Below are positions 12,720-20,475 of a stretch of DNA of 64,000 nt, piece after piece (position 1 is the first letter of the stretch; each line of letters starts with the position of its first letter). A program made the translations under genes and the position numbers. This DNA comes from Escherichia coli. Lineage in GTDB: Bacteria; Pseudomonadota; Gammaproteobacteria; Enterobacterales; Enterobacteriaceae. The notes under the pieces are model-generated. The model had not been told where the DNA came from, did not search any database, and worked only from the letters and a program-made list of their open reading frames with translations. The DNA lies in assembly GCF_003790525.1 (NCBI RefSeq), contig NZ_CP033635.1, one strand, 5' to 3'.

Positions 12720-12796
12720 TGGACCGCCACCGGGGACTCGAACCCCGCACAGTCAGCTTAGAAGGCTGATGCTCTCTCCTGATGAGCTAGTAGCGG
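12720..12796 (-). tRNA. argN: tRNA-Arg (anticodon UCU)
   Basis: Minus-strand read CCGCTAC..CTCATCAGGAGAG..CAGCCTTCTAAGCTG..GGGGTTCGAGTCCCCGGTGGCGGTCCA: 7-bp acceptor (one G-U), anticodon loop with UCU, T-loop TTCGAGT, encoded CCA. Confidence 0.8.
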
Positions 12797-12797
12797 T

Positions 12798-12873
12798 TGG
12801 TGGCCCTTGCTGAATTTGAACCAGCGCCCTTGCGATTATGAGTCGCTCGCTCTCACCACTGAGCTAAAGGGCC
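12798..12873 (-). tRNA. ileZ: tRNA with CAU anticodon (Ile2-lysidine type or Met)
   Basis: Minus-strand read GGCCCTTTAGCTCAGTGGTGAGAGCGAGCGACTCATAATCGCAAGGGCGCTGGTTCAAATTCAGCAAGGGCCACCA: canonical cloverleaf, anticodon CAT, encoded CCA; resembles the ileX/ileY-type tRNA carried by lambdoid phages. Confidence 0.8.
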
Positions 12874-13327: not shown

Positions 13328-14523
<1,196 letters not shown>

Positions 14524-14671: not shown

Positions 14672-15778
14672 ATGAAAAATTTAACAGTGGCACTTTCTGC
14701 TGTAGCAGCATCAGTATTTCTGGCAACGTCTTCAAATGCAGCAGAAATATACAATAAAGATGCAAACAAAGTGGATTTATACGGTAAAGCAGTTGGTTTA
14801 CATTATTTTTCTTCTGATAAGGACCAAAACGGAGATCAGACTTACGCACGCCTTGGATTCAGAGGTGAAACCCAAATAAATAATTATATTACTGGTTTTG
14901 GTCAGTGGGAATATAATTTCCAGGGGAACAACCCTGAAGGGGATGGAGCTCAAACTGGAAACAAGACTCGCCTGGCATACGCTGGTCTGAAGCTTGCAGA
15001 TGCTGGCTCTCTTGACTATGGTCGTAACTACGGCGTGGTGTACGACGCATTAAGCTACACTGACGTCTTCCCGGAGTTTGGACCTACCACAGCGCAAAAG
15101 GATAACTTCTTCGTTGGTCGTGTAGGCGGTGTTGCCACATACCGCAACACTGACTTTTTTGGACTGGTCGATGGGCTTAGCTTTGCAATTCAGTATCTGG
15201 GAAAAAATGAACGCAAGGATAAACCAGATACTTCAAACGGAGAGGGTGTAGGTGGCTCTGTCAGCTATGAATATGAAGGATTTGGTTTTGTCGCAGCATA
15301 CGGCGCTGCTGATCGTACTAAAAATCAGAAAAAGGCTGAGCTTGGTAAAGGGAAAAAAGCTGAACAGTGGGCCACCGGGGTAAAATATGACGCAAATAAT
15401 CTGTACCTGGCTGCCAGTTATGGTGAAACAAATAATACCCGTGCAATATCGTATGGTGATAATATTTCAGGAGTGGCGAATAAAACCGAAGATTTCACTG
15501 TTGTGGCACAATACCAGTTCGACTTTGGATTACGCCCGTCTCTTGCTTATACCCACTCTAAAGCAAAAAACCTTTCATCCAGTACTGATATTAGTAAAAA
15601 ACATGATGACGGATATATTGAAAAATTCGTTGAAGTAGGGGCTTCTTATTACTTCAACAAAAATATGTCTACATACATAGATTACAAAATCAATATGCTC
15701 GATAAAAATAAATTCACTGAAAGAACAGGAGTATCAACCGACGATATTGTCGCTGTTGGTCTGGTTTATCAGTTCTGA
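14672..15778 (+). CDS. Outer-membrane general porin, prophage-encoded (NmpC/Lc/OmpC family)
   Basis: 368 aa; signal peptide then AEIYNKD.NK.DLYGK...; [10 protein letters not shown]; [12 protein letters not shown]; [15 protein letters not shown]; C-terminal [12 protein letters not shown]; typical 16-strand porin signature, closest by memory to the DLP12 nmpC product. Confidence 0.9.
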
Positions 15779-15919
15779 TTTATTCTGTAAGAATATGCCG
15801 GGGGAGTGAGAACTTTTCTGGCATATAAAGTGGTGCCCTCATGCCACTGCAAAACGTTGGACAGTACTTAACTTTTCCAACGAACTTTCTGTTATTTATT
15901 AACCTTTTTGGTTTTTATA

Positions 15920-15948
15920 CTTGGGCGCTTTGCGCCCATTTTTTATTT
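15920..15948 (+). terminator. Rho-independent terminator downstream of the porin gene
   Basis: GGGCGCtttGCGCCC hairpin followed by ATTTTTTATTTTGT on the plus strand. Confidence 0.45.
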
Positions 15949-15956
15949 TGTACGCC

Positions 15957-16379
15957 TTATATCCCTGCCCTGGAGGACACAGTTTTACGACGTATCGAAT
16001 AATTTGTGCTCACATATCGATCCATCTCAAGGCGAACATCCAGCATCATCAACATACCATCAACCACTCCTTCAGCTTTTTGCAAACGCTTTCCAATATG
16101 CGTATCCGAACATCCATGTTTCCTTGCTAACTTCATGAACGTCATCCCATATACGTAGTAATCAACCAGCATGTCATGCATATCGGCGTTGTTCTTTTTC
16201 AGGCGAGCCATACAACCACATATAATCATCGCGTCATCATCGGAACACTGCGATCGCGATTTTACTTTTGACGGTATCAGCCCCTTAAATCCGGCGGCAA
16301 TGCCTGACCATTCCACGTCTTCATGATTATTTGCGACCCATGCCCCCCAACGTTCAAGAACCATCTGAATATCACGCAT
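15957..16379 (-). CDS. Late-gene antiterminator Q (DLP12 QuuD/YbcQ type)
   Basis: 140 aa [64 protein letters not shown]..., resembles the DLP12 prophage Q-like antiterminator as recalled; located upstream of the lysis cassette. Confidence 0.7.
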
Positions 16380-17236
16380 TATTCACACTCCCCAACCAGA
16401 TTGAGGATGACCTCTGCACCATTGTCTTTCATATATTCGCCCTTTCCGCTTGCCAAAAACCAACGACACACCTCCACGGCTTCAGCCCGTGTCACCGGTT
16501 TGATGGTCATCAGCAATTTTTCAAGGTAGCGCTCGCGGTCATATACCGATTCGTGATGCTCAGAGTAACCATACTCATCGCCCTGTTCTTTAGTTGCAGT
16601 GTGGCGAACACTGTAGAGCCAGTCCCAGTAAACAAACTCACGAACTACGTCTGACAATGTATGAGGCTCTGGCAGTACATCACGATAGCCATCAACATAT
16701 GCACGACGCTGATCATCAATTTCATTCATACGGATGCCGTCAATTCTGCCCGCTTTCTTCTCGGCTGCAGTCCAGCCCCAGAGATGATCGTCGATAAATT
16801 TCTGGGAAGACTTGATCACTCGCTCGGCTTCCACATCTTCGAGTGCTGCTTCATAGCTACCAAACGTAGCCCTGACTGATGCTGCTTTTTTGATATTCTC
16901 CCGGGCGATCCTGATTGCCTGTGCCGGGTTATCCATGCCGATGGTACCGAAAGCAATCTGGAAAGGATCGCCACCATTCGCCAGCAGATAACGCGAATAG
17001 CGTTCCTGGGCCTCTTTTGGGGATATTTTAATTTTCACCAGCGCGGCCTCAGCAGCATCCAGATGTGCGGGTTCGTTCAGACGGATAACCTCCAGTACCC
17101 AAAGATAAGCATCAGTCTGCTTATGCCCGGTGATTCTCCGTTGCTCTGGCAGGGGTTTGATGTTTGCGAGGGCGGAGCTGTACGCTGCCGTCGGGATGGT
17201 GAATAGTGCTTTATGTTCGTTGTTATCAGTACGCAT
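16379..17236 (-). CDS. Hypothetical phage protein (285 aa) immediately upstream of Q
   Basis: Clean ORF translationally abutting Q; no recognisable motif. Confidence 0.4.
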
Positions 17237-18204
17237 TACGCAGCCGCCTTTTTCTTATGGAAAACCAGCTCCCGAACCTGATCACCGTTCATGAGCATAT
17301 TGTTGAAATCATCGTGATCCGGCCAGTACACGCTCACGCGCTGCAGGTCATTCTTTGCCATCAGATTGGCATGAGCACATTCGCAAGCCGCAGCCAGCCC
17401 GGTGGCGCTGTTCTCGTCACGGTCGGCAAAAATAATCAGGTGCAGAACACCAGCTGGTACGCGGAACTTTTTCATAAAGCCGCTGTTAATGGTTGCCCAG
17501 GTGTTCACGTTATAAATCTGGTGCGCTGACAGCGCTGTTTCGATGCCTTCGGCGATACCCAGAGTGCTGGCGACAGGAAACATGCGGATAGCTACAGAAC
17601 GAGCGTGATCCAGATAGTTATCTTCCTGCAGGGATTTTAGGCGCTTTGCACTGCTACCGATATCTGCTTTTTTATCACCATCAAGCAGGGTCTGGTGCAG
17701 ATAGCACAGCTCCCCTTTATCGTCCGTAGCAAGTGAATAAAGAGACTGGAACACACTCCCGTTGTGTCTCTGCCTGGCATTGAACCTGATCGCCTCAGCA
17801 GGAAGACTGAATATTCCACGAGAATTAAGATACGCGGCGCCGGATGTACCACGCAGTGCCTCCAGTTTTGAAAACTTGCTCAATACCCGTTTGCGTAAGC
17901 TGGTGGCGCTGCTGGTTACCGGGATTTTAACCCGTTGGTAATTATTACCGATCAGGCGGTCTATTTCGGTACAAATCACGTTAAATGGCTTCGCCTGTGT
18001 CAGGGTGACAAGTTTCATACCATCGCCACTACCACATACACAGATCCACGTTCCTGCACCGTCGCGGTCGTCAATTCGGAACTTGCCACGTGCACCGCAT
18101 ACCGGGCATTCACCCTTAAAGTGATTTTTTCCGGTTATCGGCGGCAGACCGAAGTGCTCTAATATTTCAGGCCAGCGGCCTTTCGCTGCATCTGCTGTTT
18201 TCAT
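17236..18204 (-). CDS. Phage DNA primase (zinc-ribbon + Toprim-type)
   Basis: 322 aa; N-terminal zinc-binding pattern CPVCGARGKFRIDDRDGAGTWICVCGSGDG typical of P4-alpha/DnaG-like primase Zn domains; C-terminal acidic Toprim-like region (IIFADRDENSATG); adjacent to helicase. Confidence 0.65.
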   Translation of the reverse strand: MKTADAAKGRWPEILEHFGLPPITGKNHFKGECPVCGARGKFRIDDRDGAGTWICVCGSGDGMKLVTLTQAKPFNVICTEIDRLIGNNYQRVKIPVTSSATSLRKRVLSKFSKLEALRGTSGAAYLNSRGIFSLPAEAIRFNARQRHNGSVFQSLYSLATDDKGELCYLHQTLLDGDKKADIGSSAKRLKSLQEDNYLDHARSVAIRMFPVASTLGIAEGIETALSAHQIYNVNTWATINSGFMKKFRVPAGVLHLIIFADRDENSATGLAAACECAHANLMAKNDLQRVSVYWPDHDDFNNMLMNGDQVRELVFHKKKAAA

Positions 18205-18205
18205 C

Positions 18206-19864
18206 TTACTGACTCAGACTGTTTATATTTTTCTGGAGTTGTTGCTTTGCCTGCATAATGCGCCAAGCCTCACTTTCTTCCGGTGGAACATACCGGCCAC
18301 CAACAACCAGTGGCAGAGAAAGCACTTCGGATGAGTTTTTCGTCATCCTCCGTGTCCGTTCACGACCTTTAGCAAACCGGATCAGCTTGTGTCTGATGTA
18401 GTTACTTACCTCTGGGCTTATTTCCATCGGGAAACTGCTCAACCCATCAGGCCATTCACCGAATTTCTCCCTGAAAGTGTGAGCGCACCATCCATCACTG
18501 ACTGGACGCCCCAGTGAGGCACGCTGGCGCTGATAAAATTTGATCTGACTCCACCAGGCCTGTTTCTCTGCCTTCGTGGACTGATGCTGATTTTTACCCA
18601 GCTTATTAAGTTTGCGGCTAGTGTCAGTATCAACGTCTTCACCTCGCAGCGGCTTGTGTCCACATTTCGGGCAAACATAGACGCCAGCTGGCTTCATGTA
18701 GTGGCATTGAGGGCATTCATGTGGCAATTTTTCGGCCCGTTCCTCAACTGCGCGGCGCGTGCTTTCCTCCATGCCGTCAGACTTACCGGGAAGATCGTCG
18801 TACTCGATTGAATCCGGATAACCCAGACGGTGCACGGTGCCGCTGTGATCGAAGATAAGGCAGGACGCTTTACCCGGTGCGGTGCGAAGTCCACGCCCGA
18901 GTGCCTGCAACCAGCGAATTTCGCTTTTTGTTGGCCTGGCGTAGATGATGCAACGAACGTCACTATCGAATCCGGCTACCAGAACGCCCACACTAACGAT
19001 GATTTTCGTTGCACCGGTTTCAAAGCGGTGAATGATGGTCTGGCGCTCATCTACCGGAGTGTCGGCGGTCATTACCTCAGCGTTAACACCCGCCAGGTTA
19101 AACTGGATTGTCAGATAATTGGCGTGAGCTACGTTGACGCAGAAAGCGATGGTAGGTAAATCCCGACCATTCTCCAGCCAGTTCTGTACGATGTCGCCCA
19201 CCAGCGTAGAGCCGCACATGATTTCAGCCAGCTGCGTTTCGTTGTAATCCCGGCCGTACTCAAGCGAAGATGTGGTTTTAACACCTTTCAGATCCGGCTT
19301 AGTTGGCGCGTAAAATTCGTATTTACTCAGATCGCCACGCTGGATTAACTCGCCGATGGTGGTCGGCTTAATCAGTCGGTCATAGTATTTGCCCAGGAAC
19401 GGAGAAAACGGAGTACCCGACAGGCCAATCACCTTTACGCCTTTGCCGCGCAGACGTTCGATATCCTTCAGGATGCGTTTTTTACGCAGGTGCGCTTCGT
19501 CGATAATCAGCAGATCGATATTTTCAGGAAAAACACGACGAATAAGCGTGTCAGCGCTGGCAATCTGAATTTTCCGGTCCGGATCGTAGTTCGGGTGATC
19601 CGCCCAGATATAACCGATTTCATCTCCAGGTAAACCATACTGCACGAACCGATTAGCCGTCTGACCAATCAGGATGGTGTACGGAACACAGAACAGAACA
19701 CGCATACCACGGCTGACAAAACCAGCAACTATGAAGGCTGCCAGACCCGTTTTACCGCTACCTGTTGGCGAGTAAACCATGAAGGTGTCGTTTGCCTTCC
19801 AGTCACGGCGCAACATGTTTAGCGCTCGTTCCTGTGCAAAATTCGGCGTGATTGTCAGCTGCAT
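18206..19864 (-). CDS. Superfamily-2 DEAD/DEAH-box helicase (phage replication helicase)
   Basis: 552 aa; Walker A SPTGSGKT, DEAH box LIIDEAH, motif III SGTP, helicase C-terminal QALGRGLR; C-terminal Cys4 zinc ribbon (CPQCH...CPKCG). Confidence 0.8.
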   Translation of the reverse strand: MQLTITPNFAQERALNMLRRDWKANDTFMVYSPTGSGKTGLAAFIVAGFVSRGMRVLFCVPYTILIGQTANRFVQYGLPGDEIGYIWADHPNYDPDRKIQIASADTLIRRVFPENIDLLIIDEAHLRKKRILKDIERLRGKGVKVIGLSGTPFSPFLGKYYDRLIKPTTIGELIQRGDLSKYEFYAPTKPDLKGVKTTSSLEYGRDYNETQLAEIMCGSTLVGDIVQNWLENGRDLPTIAFCVNVAHANYLTIQFNLAGVNAEVMTADTPVDERQTIIHRFETGATKIIVSVGVLVAGFDSDVRCIIYARPTKSEIRWLQALGRGLRTAPGKASCLIFDHSGTVHRLGYPDSIEYDDLPGKSDGMEESTRRAVEERAEKLPHECPQCHYMKPAGVYVCPKCGHKPLRGEDVDTDTSRKLNKLGKNQHQSTKAEKQAWWSQIKFYQRQRASLGRPVSDGWCAHTFREKFGEWPDGLSSFPMEISPEVSNYIRHKLIRFAKGRERTRRMTKNSSEVLSLPLVVGGRYVPPEESEAWRIMQAKQQLQKNINSLSQ

Positions 19865-20475
19865 TGTGCTGCCTCCCCATGGTTCAGCGGGAGGCGCCTG
19901 AAATGGTGACCGCGATGAGACTTTGTTCTTCCAGCAATAACAGCATAAACACTACCGTGATCAAACCCGGCACTAATTAGCGCCTTTTTCCCGCAAAAGG
20001 TTTGCTCTTCCCTGGTCGCAATATTTGTGGCGACAATCAGGCCCTTAAATTGTTTGTTGTTCGCCCCCTGAGAATTATTCAGCCCGGTGTGAATAGAATG
20101 CTGAATGTTTTCGCTATGGCTAACCCACTCCAGATTGGATGCATGGTTATTCAGCTTGTTGCCGTCCTTATGGTTCACTTCAGGGTGGTTGTAAGGGTTG
20201 CTGCAAAAAGCCAGCGCTACCAGACGGTGTACGGCAAAAGTTTGGCGATTACGTTTGTAGCTCAGGTTAACGGTTTTATATCCATCCCGGCGCACTCTTC
20301 CCTTGAGGAACACGCCACGAATTTGGCGAATAAAAAATTCCGATTCAGCAATTCGATTAACCCCACGGATGCGTCCCGCCGAGCTAACGAGGTAAGCATC
20401 ACCATACGGAGCAACAGGAACCGGAAGCCATTTTTCACCATCAAAACTGTTAACCATAAAATCACCTCTGAACAT
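19855..20475 (-). CDS. HNH homing-type endonuclease (NUMOD4/HNH_3-like)
   Basis: 206 aa; GEKWLPVPVAPYGDAYLVSSAGRIR (NUMOD4-like) and HRLVALAF...PEVNHKDGNKLNNHASNLEWVSHSEN (HNH motif). Start may be the internal Met (MVNSFDGEKW). Confidence 0.7.
   Translation of the reverse strand: MFRGDFMVNSFDGEKWLPVPVAPYGDAYLVSSAGRIRGVNRIAESEFFIRQIRGVFLKGRVRRDGYKTVNLSYKRNRQTFAVHRLVALAFCSNPYNHPEVNHKDGNKLNNHASNLEWVSHSENIQHSIHTGLNNSQGANNKQFKGLIVATNIATREEQTFCGKKALISAGFDHGSVYAVIAGRTKSHRGHHFRRLPLNHGEAAQCS

What the first reader, a model, noticed from the sequence alone, without database searches (positions are those of the whole stretch)
16379..17236. Unknown 285-aa protein translationally abutting the Q antiterminator
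A clean ORF with no motif I recognise sits in the nin-like region between the primase and Q and shares a stop/start junction with Q. Genes here in lambdoid phages include recombination-resolution, phosphatase and accessory functions; this one is unassigned.
Basis: inference. Interest (0 to 1): 0.3.

Follow-up and report, generated by a model that had tools for sequence, protein, structure and literature searches.

The report
Optional prophage early gene, function unknown
This is a real but dispensable early gene of a lambda-like prophage, wedged between the DNA-replication genes and the late-gene switch Q, that encodes an all-helical protein with no known relative of known function, so it stays an unassigned accessory gene and not a missing core part.

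Summary
The 285-aa ORF is real, but it lies on the minus strand (16379..17236). It is under purifying selection (dN/dS about 0.135). Its start overlaps the primase stop by 1 nt and its stop overlaps the Q start by 1 nt (TAATG both times). It has no Pfam or NCBIfam match and one full-length PHROG of unknown function. A confident AlphaFold model (pLDDT 93) has no fold relative in the PDB or the viral structure set.

The PGAP name "helix-turn-helix domain-containing protein" does not fit this protein. 57% of full-length family representatives carry an extra N-terminal segment, a detectable HTH in a subset. The window protein starts just after that point.

The gene is an optional cassette. It ends replication modules of at least three unrelated types and precedes Q proteins of at least two sequence types. 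Versions 86% identical sit behind unrelated helicases. Of 129 phage records with this primase, only 12 have the gene. Phages YP3 and Fostie join primase directly to Q, and Stx phage TL-2011c has NinB-NinG-NinH in the same slot.

Best reading: a non-essential early accessory protein acting through protein contacts, with an unknown target. Interest is low to moderate.

The parts
16379..17236 (-). Gene X: 285-aa ORF (stop codon included), the subject of the finding
   Evidence: ORF list. Full-length match to PHROG 6204, unknown function, E 8.9e-184. dN/dS about 0.135. AlphaFold model pLDDT 93.1, pTM 0.87, all-alpha.
17192..17236 (-). Codons 1-15: conserved N-terminal motif (N5, H8, L11, F12, I/L14, P15; 'NxxHxxLFxLP')
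   Evidence: Column conservation across 110 family members: N5 90%, F12 87%, P15 93%. The motif is retained in the 158-aa short Klebsiella form, which lacks the middle part. In HTH-bearing relatives it directly follows the HTH.
16841..17131 (-). Codons 36-132: middle helical domain with the 'TG(D/H)xxxDAxLW' signature (T36, G37, D42, W46)
   Evidence: T36 and G37 95%, D42 94%, W46 93%. Helices at 39-52, 56-68, 73-86, 91-97 and 104-125. This part is absent from the short Klebsiella form and from C-domain-only relatives.
16382..16840 (-). Codons 133-285: acidic C-terminal helical domain with 'PxTLSDxxxExxYW' (P191, D196, E200, W204), R234, P247 and E252
   Evidence: PHROGs 2887 and 19083 match only this part. 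The short Klebsiella proteins align to residues 136-285. P191 98%, W204 96%, E252 96%. pI 4.95, net charge -11.
17234..17238 (-). TAATG junction: primase stop TAA overlaps the X start ATG by one base
   Evidence: Read. The same 1-nt overlap occurs in 79 of 80 close loci.
16377..16381 (-). TAATG junction: X stop TAA overlaps the Q start ATG by one base
   Evidence: Read. This junction varies in relatives: -1, -4, -10, -13, +3, and +382 to +734 nt.
17236..18204 (-). Upstream neighbour: toprim/zinc-ribbon DNA primase, 322 aa (context only)
   Evidence: Pfam Toprim_3, Zn_Ribbon_Prim and DUF7146. PHROG 510 DNA primase.
18206..19864 (-). SF2 (DEAD/ResIII) helicase, 552 aa (context only)
   Evidence: Pfam ResIII, Helicase_C and DEAD. 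PHROG 16.
15957..16379 (-). Downstream neighbour: Q antiterminator, 140 aa (context only)
   Evidence: PF06530 Phage_antitermQ, E 1.3e-53.

Best explanation
Gene X is a genuine, optional accessory gene of the early rightward operon of a lambdoid prophage. It sits as a cassette in the nin slot between the replication genes and Q. Because its start overlaps the primase stop, it is probably translated together with the replication proteins as soon as the prophage is induced. It encodes the free-standing form of a two-domain all-helical module with a conserved N-terminal peptide. In more than half of the family that module is preceded by an extra N-terminal segment, a detectable HTH in a subset and a Bro-N domain in one case.

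The window protein has no DNA-binding domain and no recognisable catalytic motif. It most likely works by binding a protein partner that does not depend on which replication proteins or which Q the phage carries. That partner would be a host factor or a widely shared phage factor, giving host takeover, counter-defence or fine-tuning of the early programme.

Shown here: the gene is real and under constraint; it lies in the early operon with overlapping stop and start codons; it is dispensable for this replication module and for Q; it moves independently of its neighbours; it lacks the HTH; it has no fold relative. Inferred: action through protein binding. Unknown: the partner.
For: Real gene: dN/dS about 0.135, and as conserved as the helicase and primase.

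Early operon: stop and start codons overlap on both sides, with no promoter-like site and only one weak terminator-like site (inside the primase gene) on the minus strand between primase and Q. The Fels-1 ortholog STM0902 is listed in one co-regulated operon, STM0900-0903, in mutagen-treated Salmonella (PMC2225428).

Optional: 129 phage records have a full-length homolog of the primase but only 12 have X. YP3, Fostie and Klebsiella ST16-OXA48phi5.3 run helicase-primase-Q with primase abutting Q. TL-2011c has NinB-NinG-NinH in the slot.

Independent of neighbours: X follows SF2 helicase plus toprim primase, a P4-alpha-like fused primase-helicase plus an SSB-like ORF, or an O-like initiator plus DnaB-type helicase, and it precedes at least two Q sequence types. 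X in L221 (DnaB type, 140-aa-type Q) is 86% identical to X in L220 (SF2 plus toprim, Fels-type Q). The core of the HTH-bearing X in L188 is 76% identical to the window protein. dS differs sharply between primase and X within one locus.

No HTH: no Pfam or NCBIfam hit. Of 110 relatives scanned, 17 match Sigma70_r4_2, 13 HTH_23 and 1 Bro-N, all N-terminal to the shared core. 47 of 83 full-length representatives have an N-terminal extension of at least 35 aa.

Against: No partner was identified, so protein binding is only an inference from what is absent. The gene's position next to replication genes is very consistent in enteric phages and satellite-like elements, and overlapping stop and start codons often mark proteins that work together. 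Conserved acidic and basic residues (D42, D196, E200, R234, E252) could form a metal or catalytic site instead of a binding surface. Conservation of 79-99% across genera is higher than is typical of fast-evolving counter-defence genes. Fold searches could not be run domain by domain, and the AlphaFold database library was unavailable.
Confidence: 0.45

Rival explanations
1. X is an accessory subunit of the phage replication machinery. It would bind the upstream helicase or primase, or link them to the origin, to SSB or to the host polymerase, and it improves replication without being strictly required.
For: Helicase-primase-X order in 80 of 80 close loci, with a 1-nt primase/X overlap in 79. 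A primase gene lies upstream in 71 of the 79 intermediate loci, mostly a P4-alpha-like fused primase-helicase, often with an SSB-like ORF between it and X. The X start overlaps the DnaB-type helicase stop in L210 and L228. About 20 distant loci have X downstream of primase or helicase genes on the same strand. The HTH in relatives would suit origin binding.
Against: Only 12 of 129 phage records with this primase carry X, and close relatives join primase directly to Q. X does not track the type of replication protein: 86% identity across DnaB-type and SF2-plus-toprim modules. In about 30 high-GC temperate phage loci X lies in the repressor-to-integrase operon, on the opposite arm from the replication genes. 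A fused primase-linker-X AlphaFold model gave pTM 0.45, so no confident joint arrangement; this is a weak test because the primase part was poorly modelled. No iterons or AT-rich origin-like feature were found in or near the gene.
Confidence: 0.2
2. X is a recombination or DNA-repair accessory protein of the nin type. It would be a functional counterpart of NinB/Orf, NinG/Rap or RusA, which occupy the same slot in other phages.
For: Same slot as NinB-NinG-NinH in TL-2011c. A rusA gene lies next to X in E. coli LH50-c. An SSB-like ORF lies directly upstream in the P4-alpha-type modules.
Against: No sequence or fold similarity to any nin-region or recombination family. The protein is acidic overall (pI 5.6, C-domain 4.95), which does not suggest nucleic-acid binding. 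Co-occurrence with rusA shows it does not simply replace a resolvase.
Confidence: 0.1
3. X is a helix-turn-helix transcription regulator, as its PGAP name says. It would bind DNA to control early or late transcription, perhaps together with Q.
For: PGAP names many orthologs 'helix-turn-helix domain-containing protein'. Many relatives do carry an N-terminal HTH. The gene abuts Q.
Against: The window protein begins just after the position where relatives have the HTH. It has no Pfam or NCBIfam HTH hit, even at E<=10 for Pfam. In the model the first 38 residues hold only one short helix. PGAP annotation is inconsistent, with 'hypothetical protein' for many orthologs. Q sequence type varies and Q works without X in YP3 and Fostie.
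Confidence: 0.08
4. X is an enzyme of a new all-helical type, with a metal site built from the conserved acidic residues.
For: Near-invariant polar residues: D42 94%, D196 75% (plus E 14%), E200 84%, R234 83%, E252 96%.
Against: No match to any enzyme family by sequence or fold. The two domains occur separately in relatives, which fits binding modules better than a composite active site.
Confidence: 0.06

Closest known systems
PHROG 6204 (with PHROGs 2887 and 19083 for the C-terminal domain): phage protein families of unknown function
   Same: Full-length profile match (E 8.9e-184, residues 1-285 of 285). The C-terminal domain alone matches the two smaller families.
   Different: Nothing differs; this is membership. 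The families carry no functional annotation, so membership explains nothing.
Lambda-type nin-region accessory genes (NinB/Orf, NinG/Rap, NinH, RusA)
   Same: Same genomic slot between replication genes and Q; optional; swapped as cassettes with breakpoints at gene boundaries.
   Different: No sequence or fold similarity to any of them. No evidence of nucleic-acid binding or nuclease activity.
Domain-shuffled phage regulators with N-terminal Bro-N, KilA-N or HTH modules and variable C-terminal modules (antirepressor-like proteins). This comparison comes from my own knowledge of the literature and is a lead, not a test.
   Same: The family core is found behind an HTH, behind Bro-N (one case), or behind nothing. 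ORF6N/KilA-N-type genes are frequent neighbours.
   Different: The window protein has no N-terminal DNA-binding module. The core matches no known C-terminal module such as ANT or KilA-C in Pfam. No repressor-binding activity is known.
Self-regulating anti-defence fusions such as AcrIIA1, an N-terminal HTH plus an inhibitor domain. This also comes from my own knowledge and is an analogy only.
   Same: An effector module that occurs with or without a fused HTH; early expression; patchy, cassette-like distribution in temperate phages and satellite-like elements.
   Different: No homology. The protein is larger and more conserved than typical anti-CRISPR proteins.
Accessory factors of P4-type primase replication modules (P4 alpha protein and its regulator Cnr)
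   Same: The neighbouring primase is P4-alpha-like, and in relatives the gene follows a full P4-alpha-type primase-helicase.
   Different: No similarity to the P4 alpha C-terminal origin-binding domain was detected. The gene is absent from most phages that carry this primase.

Membership tests
PHROG 6204 (unknown function) | Full-length match to the family profile | tested here: met
   E 8.9e-184, 610 bits, residues 1-285 against profile positions 1-285 of 286.
Helix-turn-helix domain-containing protein (the PGAP name) | A detectable helix-turn-helix DNA-binding domain in this protein | tested here: not met
   No Pfam family at E<=10 and no NCBIfam family at E<=0.1. The alignment shows the protein starts after the HTH of its relatives. 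In the model, residues 1-38 hold only one short helix.
Helix-turn-helix domain-containing protein (the PGAP name) | Homology to proteins that do carry the HTH | tested here: met
   Of 110 relatives, 17 match Sigma70_r4_2, 13 HTH_23 and 9 HTH_28. The core of the HTH-bearing L188 protein is 76% identical to the window protein.
Lambda nin-region gene set | Position between replication genes and Q, and presence/absence variation among related phages | tested here: met
   Slot empty in YP3, Fostie and ST16-OXA48phi5.3; filled by NinB-NinG-NinH in TL-2011c; shared with rusA in LH50-c.
Lambda nin-region gene set | Homology to a named nin protein (NinB, NinG, NinH, RusA, Ser/Thr phosphatase and others) | tested here: not met
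   No Pfam hit for the window protein or for the shared core of 110 relatives. No PDB sequence or fold match.
Core component of the SF2-helicase plus toprim-primase replication module | Obligate co-occurrence with the helicase and primase | tested here: not met
   Full-length primase homolog in 129 phage records, X in 12. Three phages run helicase-primase-Q with no X.
Core component of the SF2-helicase plus toprim-primase replication module | Physical complex with the primase | tested here: inconclusive
   The fused primase-linker-X AlphaFold model gave pTM 0.45, but the primase part was poorly modelled and no contact map is returned.
Q antiterminator family or an obligate partner of Q | Constant association with one Q family | tested here: not met
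   The downstream Q is the 140-aa PF06530 type or the roughly 260-280-aa Fels/Klebsiella type; the junction varies; Q is absent in satellite-like loci.
Known anti-phage defence proteins (PADLOC) | Match to a defence-system profile | tested here: not met
   Only a 14-bit partial match to PbeC at E 0.0025, which is not meaningful. No hits for six relatives.
Counter-defence or host-takeover effector | Inhibits a defined host or defence protein | not testable with these tools
   No anti-defence profile library and no interaction data were available. Only indirect features are present: early, optional, mosaic, with HTH-fused variants.

The most novel reading that the evidence does not exclude
The family could be a previously unrecognised class of early effector in temperate phages and satellite-like elements of Proteobacteria, with a fold of its own. 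A conserved N-terminal peptide plus two helical domains would capture a host protein, for counter-defence or to license replication. HTH-fused variants would repress their own promoter or tether the effector to DNA, and the enteric lambdoid form would be the untethered version.
Probability: 0.2. Interest if true: 0.6.

Novelty: new member of a known kind. Interest (0 to 1): 0.3.

Why it matters
The gene does not change how lambdoid phages are understood; it is one more optional cassette in the mosaic early region. Three points have modest value. First, the widespread PGAP label 'helix-turn-helix domain-containing protein' misleads for this HTH-less clade and should not be read as DNA binding. 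Second, the family is broad: 157 clusters at 50% identity, 96 of 5426 complete E. coli genomes, plus Salmonella Fels-1 and Klebsiella prophages. It is well conserved, confidently modelled, and has no fold relative, which makes it a reasonable target for structural or interaction screens. Third, the natural presence/absence series on an otherwise conserved helicase-primase-Q backbone (Fels-1 and phi467 with the gene, YP3 and Fostie without it) is a ready-made comparison for finding what the gene contributes, including in phages related to the non-lambda-replication Stx phages, whose replication proteins are unstudied (PMC8951638).

Tried and rejected
- **Origin inside or beside the gene:** the repeat search over 15700-21600 found only short two- or three-copy matches with no iteron array. 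The composition profile showed no AT-rich dip or skew switch in the gene. Rejected.
- **Internal signals:** no promoter-like site on the minus strand between primase and Q. The only minus-strand terminator-like site is weak, lies inside the primase, and counts are within the shuffled expectation.
- **Remote homology:** Pfam at E<=10, NCBIfam, and PADLOC gave nothing useful for the core. Single-sequence and 110-member-profile searches of PDB sequences gave nothing either; the best hits were chance matches to cytochrome b562 and designed helical proteins at E about 0.1.
- **Extra domains in long relatives:** only one Bro-N was detected. The ParB-like look of P0206 and P0215 is my reading of the sequence; Pfam did not confirm it.
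- **Searches that underperformed:** the locus search with the 110-member alignment failed because no stretch was conserved enough.
- **Methods fixes:** the first crude gene caller failed in high-GC loci and was replaced by a GC3-based filter. Two apparent cross-class identities (L177/L204 and L199/L200) were misclassifications and were discarded. The first fused alignment placed distant primases in the X region and was rebuilt without them.
- **Primase-X complex:** the fused model gave pTM 0.45, which offers no support but is not decisive.
- **Beta-clamp-binding peptide:** I considered whether the N-terminal 'HKALF' is one. I rejected it as unsupported, because the segment is confidently modelled (block pLDDT 86-94), which does not suggest a free disordered peptide, and no test was possible.
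- **Literature:** identifier and keyword searches found only a microarray operon listing for STM0902.

Full report
**Observation.** The window holds a 285-aa ORF at 16379..17236, on the minus strand. On that strand the gene order is:
- a NUMOD4/HNH endonuclease (19855..20475)
- an SF2 helicase (18206..19864)
- a toprim/zinc-ribbon primase (17236..18204)
- the ORF, here called X
- a Q antiterminator of family PF06530 (15957..16379)

The X stop (TAA, 16379-16381) shares one base with the Q start (ATG, 16377-16379). The primase stop shares one base with the X start at 17236. The window is an E. coli chromosome carrying a lambdoid prophage next to yecE, yecN and cmoA. The best match is strain TUM1886, where the gene is 100% identical.

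X is a real gene. Orthologs at 79-99% identity occur across enteric genera and in phages Fels-1 (STM0902), phi467, vB_EcoS-611R1 and ENT39118. dN/dS over ten pairs is about 0.135, against 0.08 for the primase and 0.16 for the helicase. Its mean identity to the window copy across 76 loci is 91.7%, against 88.0% for the primase and 91.6% for the helicase.

**What the protein is.** It has no Pfam match even at E<=10 and no NCBIfam match. It is a full-length member of PHROG 6204, which has no known function. PHROGs 2887 and 19083 match only residues about 171-285.

The family signature is:
- an N-terminal peptide, NxxHxxLFxLP (N5 90%, F12 87%, P15 93%)
- a middle domain with TG(D/H)xxxDAxLW (T36 and G37 95%, D42 94%, W46 93%)
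- an acidic C-terminal domain with PxTLSDxxxExxYW (P191 98%, W204 96%), plus R234, P247 and E252 (96%)

The C-domain has pI 4.95 and net charge -11. A 158-aa Klebsiella form keeps the N-terminal peptide and the C-domain and lacks the middle domain. Other relatives consist of one domain only.

**The database name does not fit this protein.** PGAP calls many orthologs 'helix-turn-helix domain-containing protein' and others 'hypothetical protein'. Reading the relatives explains the name. Many have about 45 extra N-terminal residues of the type '...LKRSGxGYxxIAxxxGxxxxTVxxxCxRSG'. Of the 110 members scanned against Pfam, 17 match Sigma70_r4_2, 13 HTH_23, 9 HTH_28, and one Bro-N. Of 83 full-length representatives, 47 have an N-terminal extension of at least 35 aa, and 30 start directly at the N-terminal peptide, as the window protein does. 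So the window protein is the HTH-less form, and nothing here suggests that it binds DNA.

**Context in close relatives.** In 80 viral contigs with X at 85-99% identity, the order helicase-primase-X holds in all 80. The primase/X overlap of one base holds in 79. The downstream Q belongs to at least two unrelated sequence types: the 140-aa PF06530 type, and a 257-281-aa type as in Fels-1 and the Klebsiella phages. The X-Q junction varies (-1, -4, -10, -13, +3, and +382 to +734 nt).

**Context in more distant relatives.** In 79 contigs at 51-87% identity to an HTH-bearing relative, HTH-X usually follows a P4-alpha-like fused primase-helicase of about 710-910 aa. A 134-147-aa ORF often lies between them; by eye it looks SSB-like, which I did not test. 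HTH-X is then followed by Q, or it ends the operon in satellite-like elements. Four loci place an HTH-less X directly after an O-like initiator, a second protein and a DnaB-type helicase, again before Q.

In 72 loci of the most distant group:
- About 20 have X a few genes downstream of primase or helicase genes on the same strand. The pairs are SF2 helicase with toprim primase, toprim primase with a DUF927 helicase, or a DnaB-like helicase.
- About 30 high-GC temperate phage loci have X in the repressor-to-integrase operon, on the opposite arm from the replication genes.

**Does X need its neighbours?** Three tests say no.

1. X does not track its partner. X in L221 (behind the DnaB-type helicase, before a 140-aa-type Q) is 86% identical to X in L220 (behind SF2 helicase plus toprim primase, before a Fels-type Q). 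The core of the HTH-bearing X in L188, behind a P4-alpha-type gene, is 76% identical to the window protein. Synonymous divergence is discordant between primase and X within single loci: in L085 it is 2.17 against 0.51, and in L033 it is 0.04 against 0.29. This indicates recombination at the gene boundary.

2. The reverse census. A full-length homolog of the primase occurs in 129 phage records, but X occurs in only 12. Three phages have helicase-primase-Q with nothing in between: Yersinia phage YP3 (primase 83.5% identical), Escherichia phage Fostie (80.4%) and Klebsiella phage ST16-OXA48phi5.3 (76.6%); in Fostie and ST16-OXA48phi5.3 the primase stop overlaps the Q start. The Stx2a phage TL-2011c has helicase-primase-NinB-NinG-NinH-Q.

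3. A fused primase-linker-X AlphaFold model gave pTM 0.45. X stayed well folded but the primase was poorly modelled, so this gives no support for a complex and is a weak test.

No origin-like repeats or composition signal lie in or beside the gene. X is present in 96 of 5426 complete E. coli genomes, always at 80% or more of its length.

**How it most likely works.** X is an optional cassette in the nin slot of the early rightward operon. It is expressed with the replication genes through overlapping stop and start codons. The Fels-1 ortholog is listed in a single co-regulated operon, STM0900-0903, in mutagen-treated Salmonella (PMC2225428).

The protein lacks a DNA-binding domain and any recognisable catalytic motif. 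The same core is found free, or behind interchangeable DNA-binding modules. My best inference is that the core is an effector that binds a protein partner, and that this partner is independent of the phage's replication proteins and Q type. The HTH in relatives would provide tethering or self-regulation. The partner is unknown.

I put 0.45 on this reading, with the optional-accessory part much firmer than the protein-binding part. The rivals are:

| Rival reading | Confidence |
|---|---|
| Non-essential replication accessory factor | 0.2 |
| nin-type recombination function | 0.1 |
| True HTH regulator | 0.08 |
| New all-helical enzyme using the conserved acidic residues | 0.06 |

**Comparison with what is known.** The protein is a member of PHROG 6204 and nothing more informative. 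It behaves like lambda nin-region accessory genes in position and dispensability, but it is homologous to none of them. Its modular pattern resembles domain-shuffled Bro-N/HTH phage regulators and HTH-fused anti-defence proteins. Those are analogies from my own knowledge and were not tested here. No paper in the searchable library assigns it a function. A survey of Stx phages with non-lambda replication regions states that nothing is known about the proteins involved in their replication (PMC8951638).

**Verdict.** The gene is an uncharacterised, dispensable early accessory gene: a new member of a known kind. It has a misleading database name and no detected fold relative. Interest is about 0.3.

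Noticed in passing
window 17231-17238 and 16374-16381 (minus strand): The same 8-mer, TAATGCGT, forms both junctions of gene X (primase/X and X/Q). A deletion between the two copies would join the primase stop to the Q start in the same overlapping arrangement. This may be chance, because both downstream genes begin Met-Arg.
   Followed up: partly
window 19855-20475 (minus strand): A NUMOD4 plus HNH_3 endonuclease gene overlaps the helicase start by 10 nt. It is present upstream of the helicase in only 3 of 80 close loci, which suggests a mobile homing-endonuclease-type insertion in the replication operon.
   Followed up: partly
window 13396-14376 (plus strand): A 326-aa transposase ORF annotated by eye as IS5-like sits between the porin gene and the tRNA/lysis region of the prophage. 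The closest relative, TUM1886, has no annotated transposase between its porin and lysis genes.
   Followed up: no
window 14672-15778 (plus strand): A 368-aa OmpC/NmpC-like porin gene lies just downstream of Q and converges on it. A strong terminator-like hairpin at 15922-15938 follows it, beyond the end of Q. PGAP annotates 'porin' or 'ompC' at this position in relatives.
   Followed up: no
window 12720-12873 (minus strand): tRNA-Arg (anticodon tct) and tRNA-Met (anticodon cat) lie between the Q/porin region and the lysis genes, a usual place for lambdoid tRNA genes. The relative LH50-c has Thr, Arg and Ile tRNAs there.
   Followed up: no
loci L164-L208, for example L164:6545-6949 and L205:6320-6763: In prophages and satellite-like elements with a P4-alpha-like fused primase-helicase, a 134-147-aa ORF beginning 'MTAQ(I/L)(S/A)A(Y/H)GRLVAD...' lies between the primase-helicase and HTH-X. 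By eye it looks like an SSB-type OB-fold protein; I did not test this.
   Followed up: no
proteins P0206, P0215 and P0211 (relatives, not in the window): Three long relatives have about 165-205 extra N-terminal residues. In P0206 and P0215 these look ParB-like by eye ('DGxxR...AAKAAG' followed by an HTH-like stretch). Pfam found nothing at E<=0.05.
   Followed up: partly
loci L085 and L033 compared with window 16379-18204: Synonymous divergence from the window copy differs several-fold between the adjacent primase and X genes in the same locus: 2.17 against 0.51 in L085, and 0.04 against 0.29 in L033. This marks a mosaic recombination boundary at the 1-nt gene overlap.
   Followed up: yes
window 16379-17236 and its orthologs in RefSeq E. 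coli genomes: PGAP annotation of near-identical orthologs is inconsistent: either 'hypothetical protein' or 'helix-turn-helix domain-containing protein'. No NCBIfam release 20 model matches the protein.
   Followed up: yes
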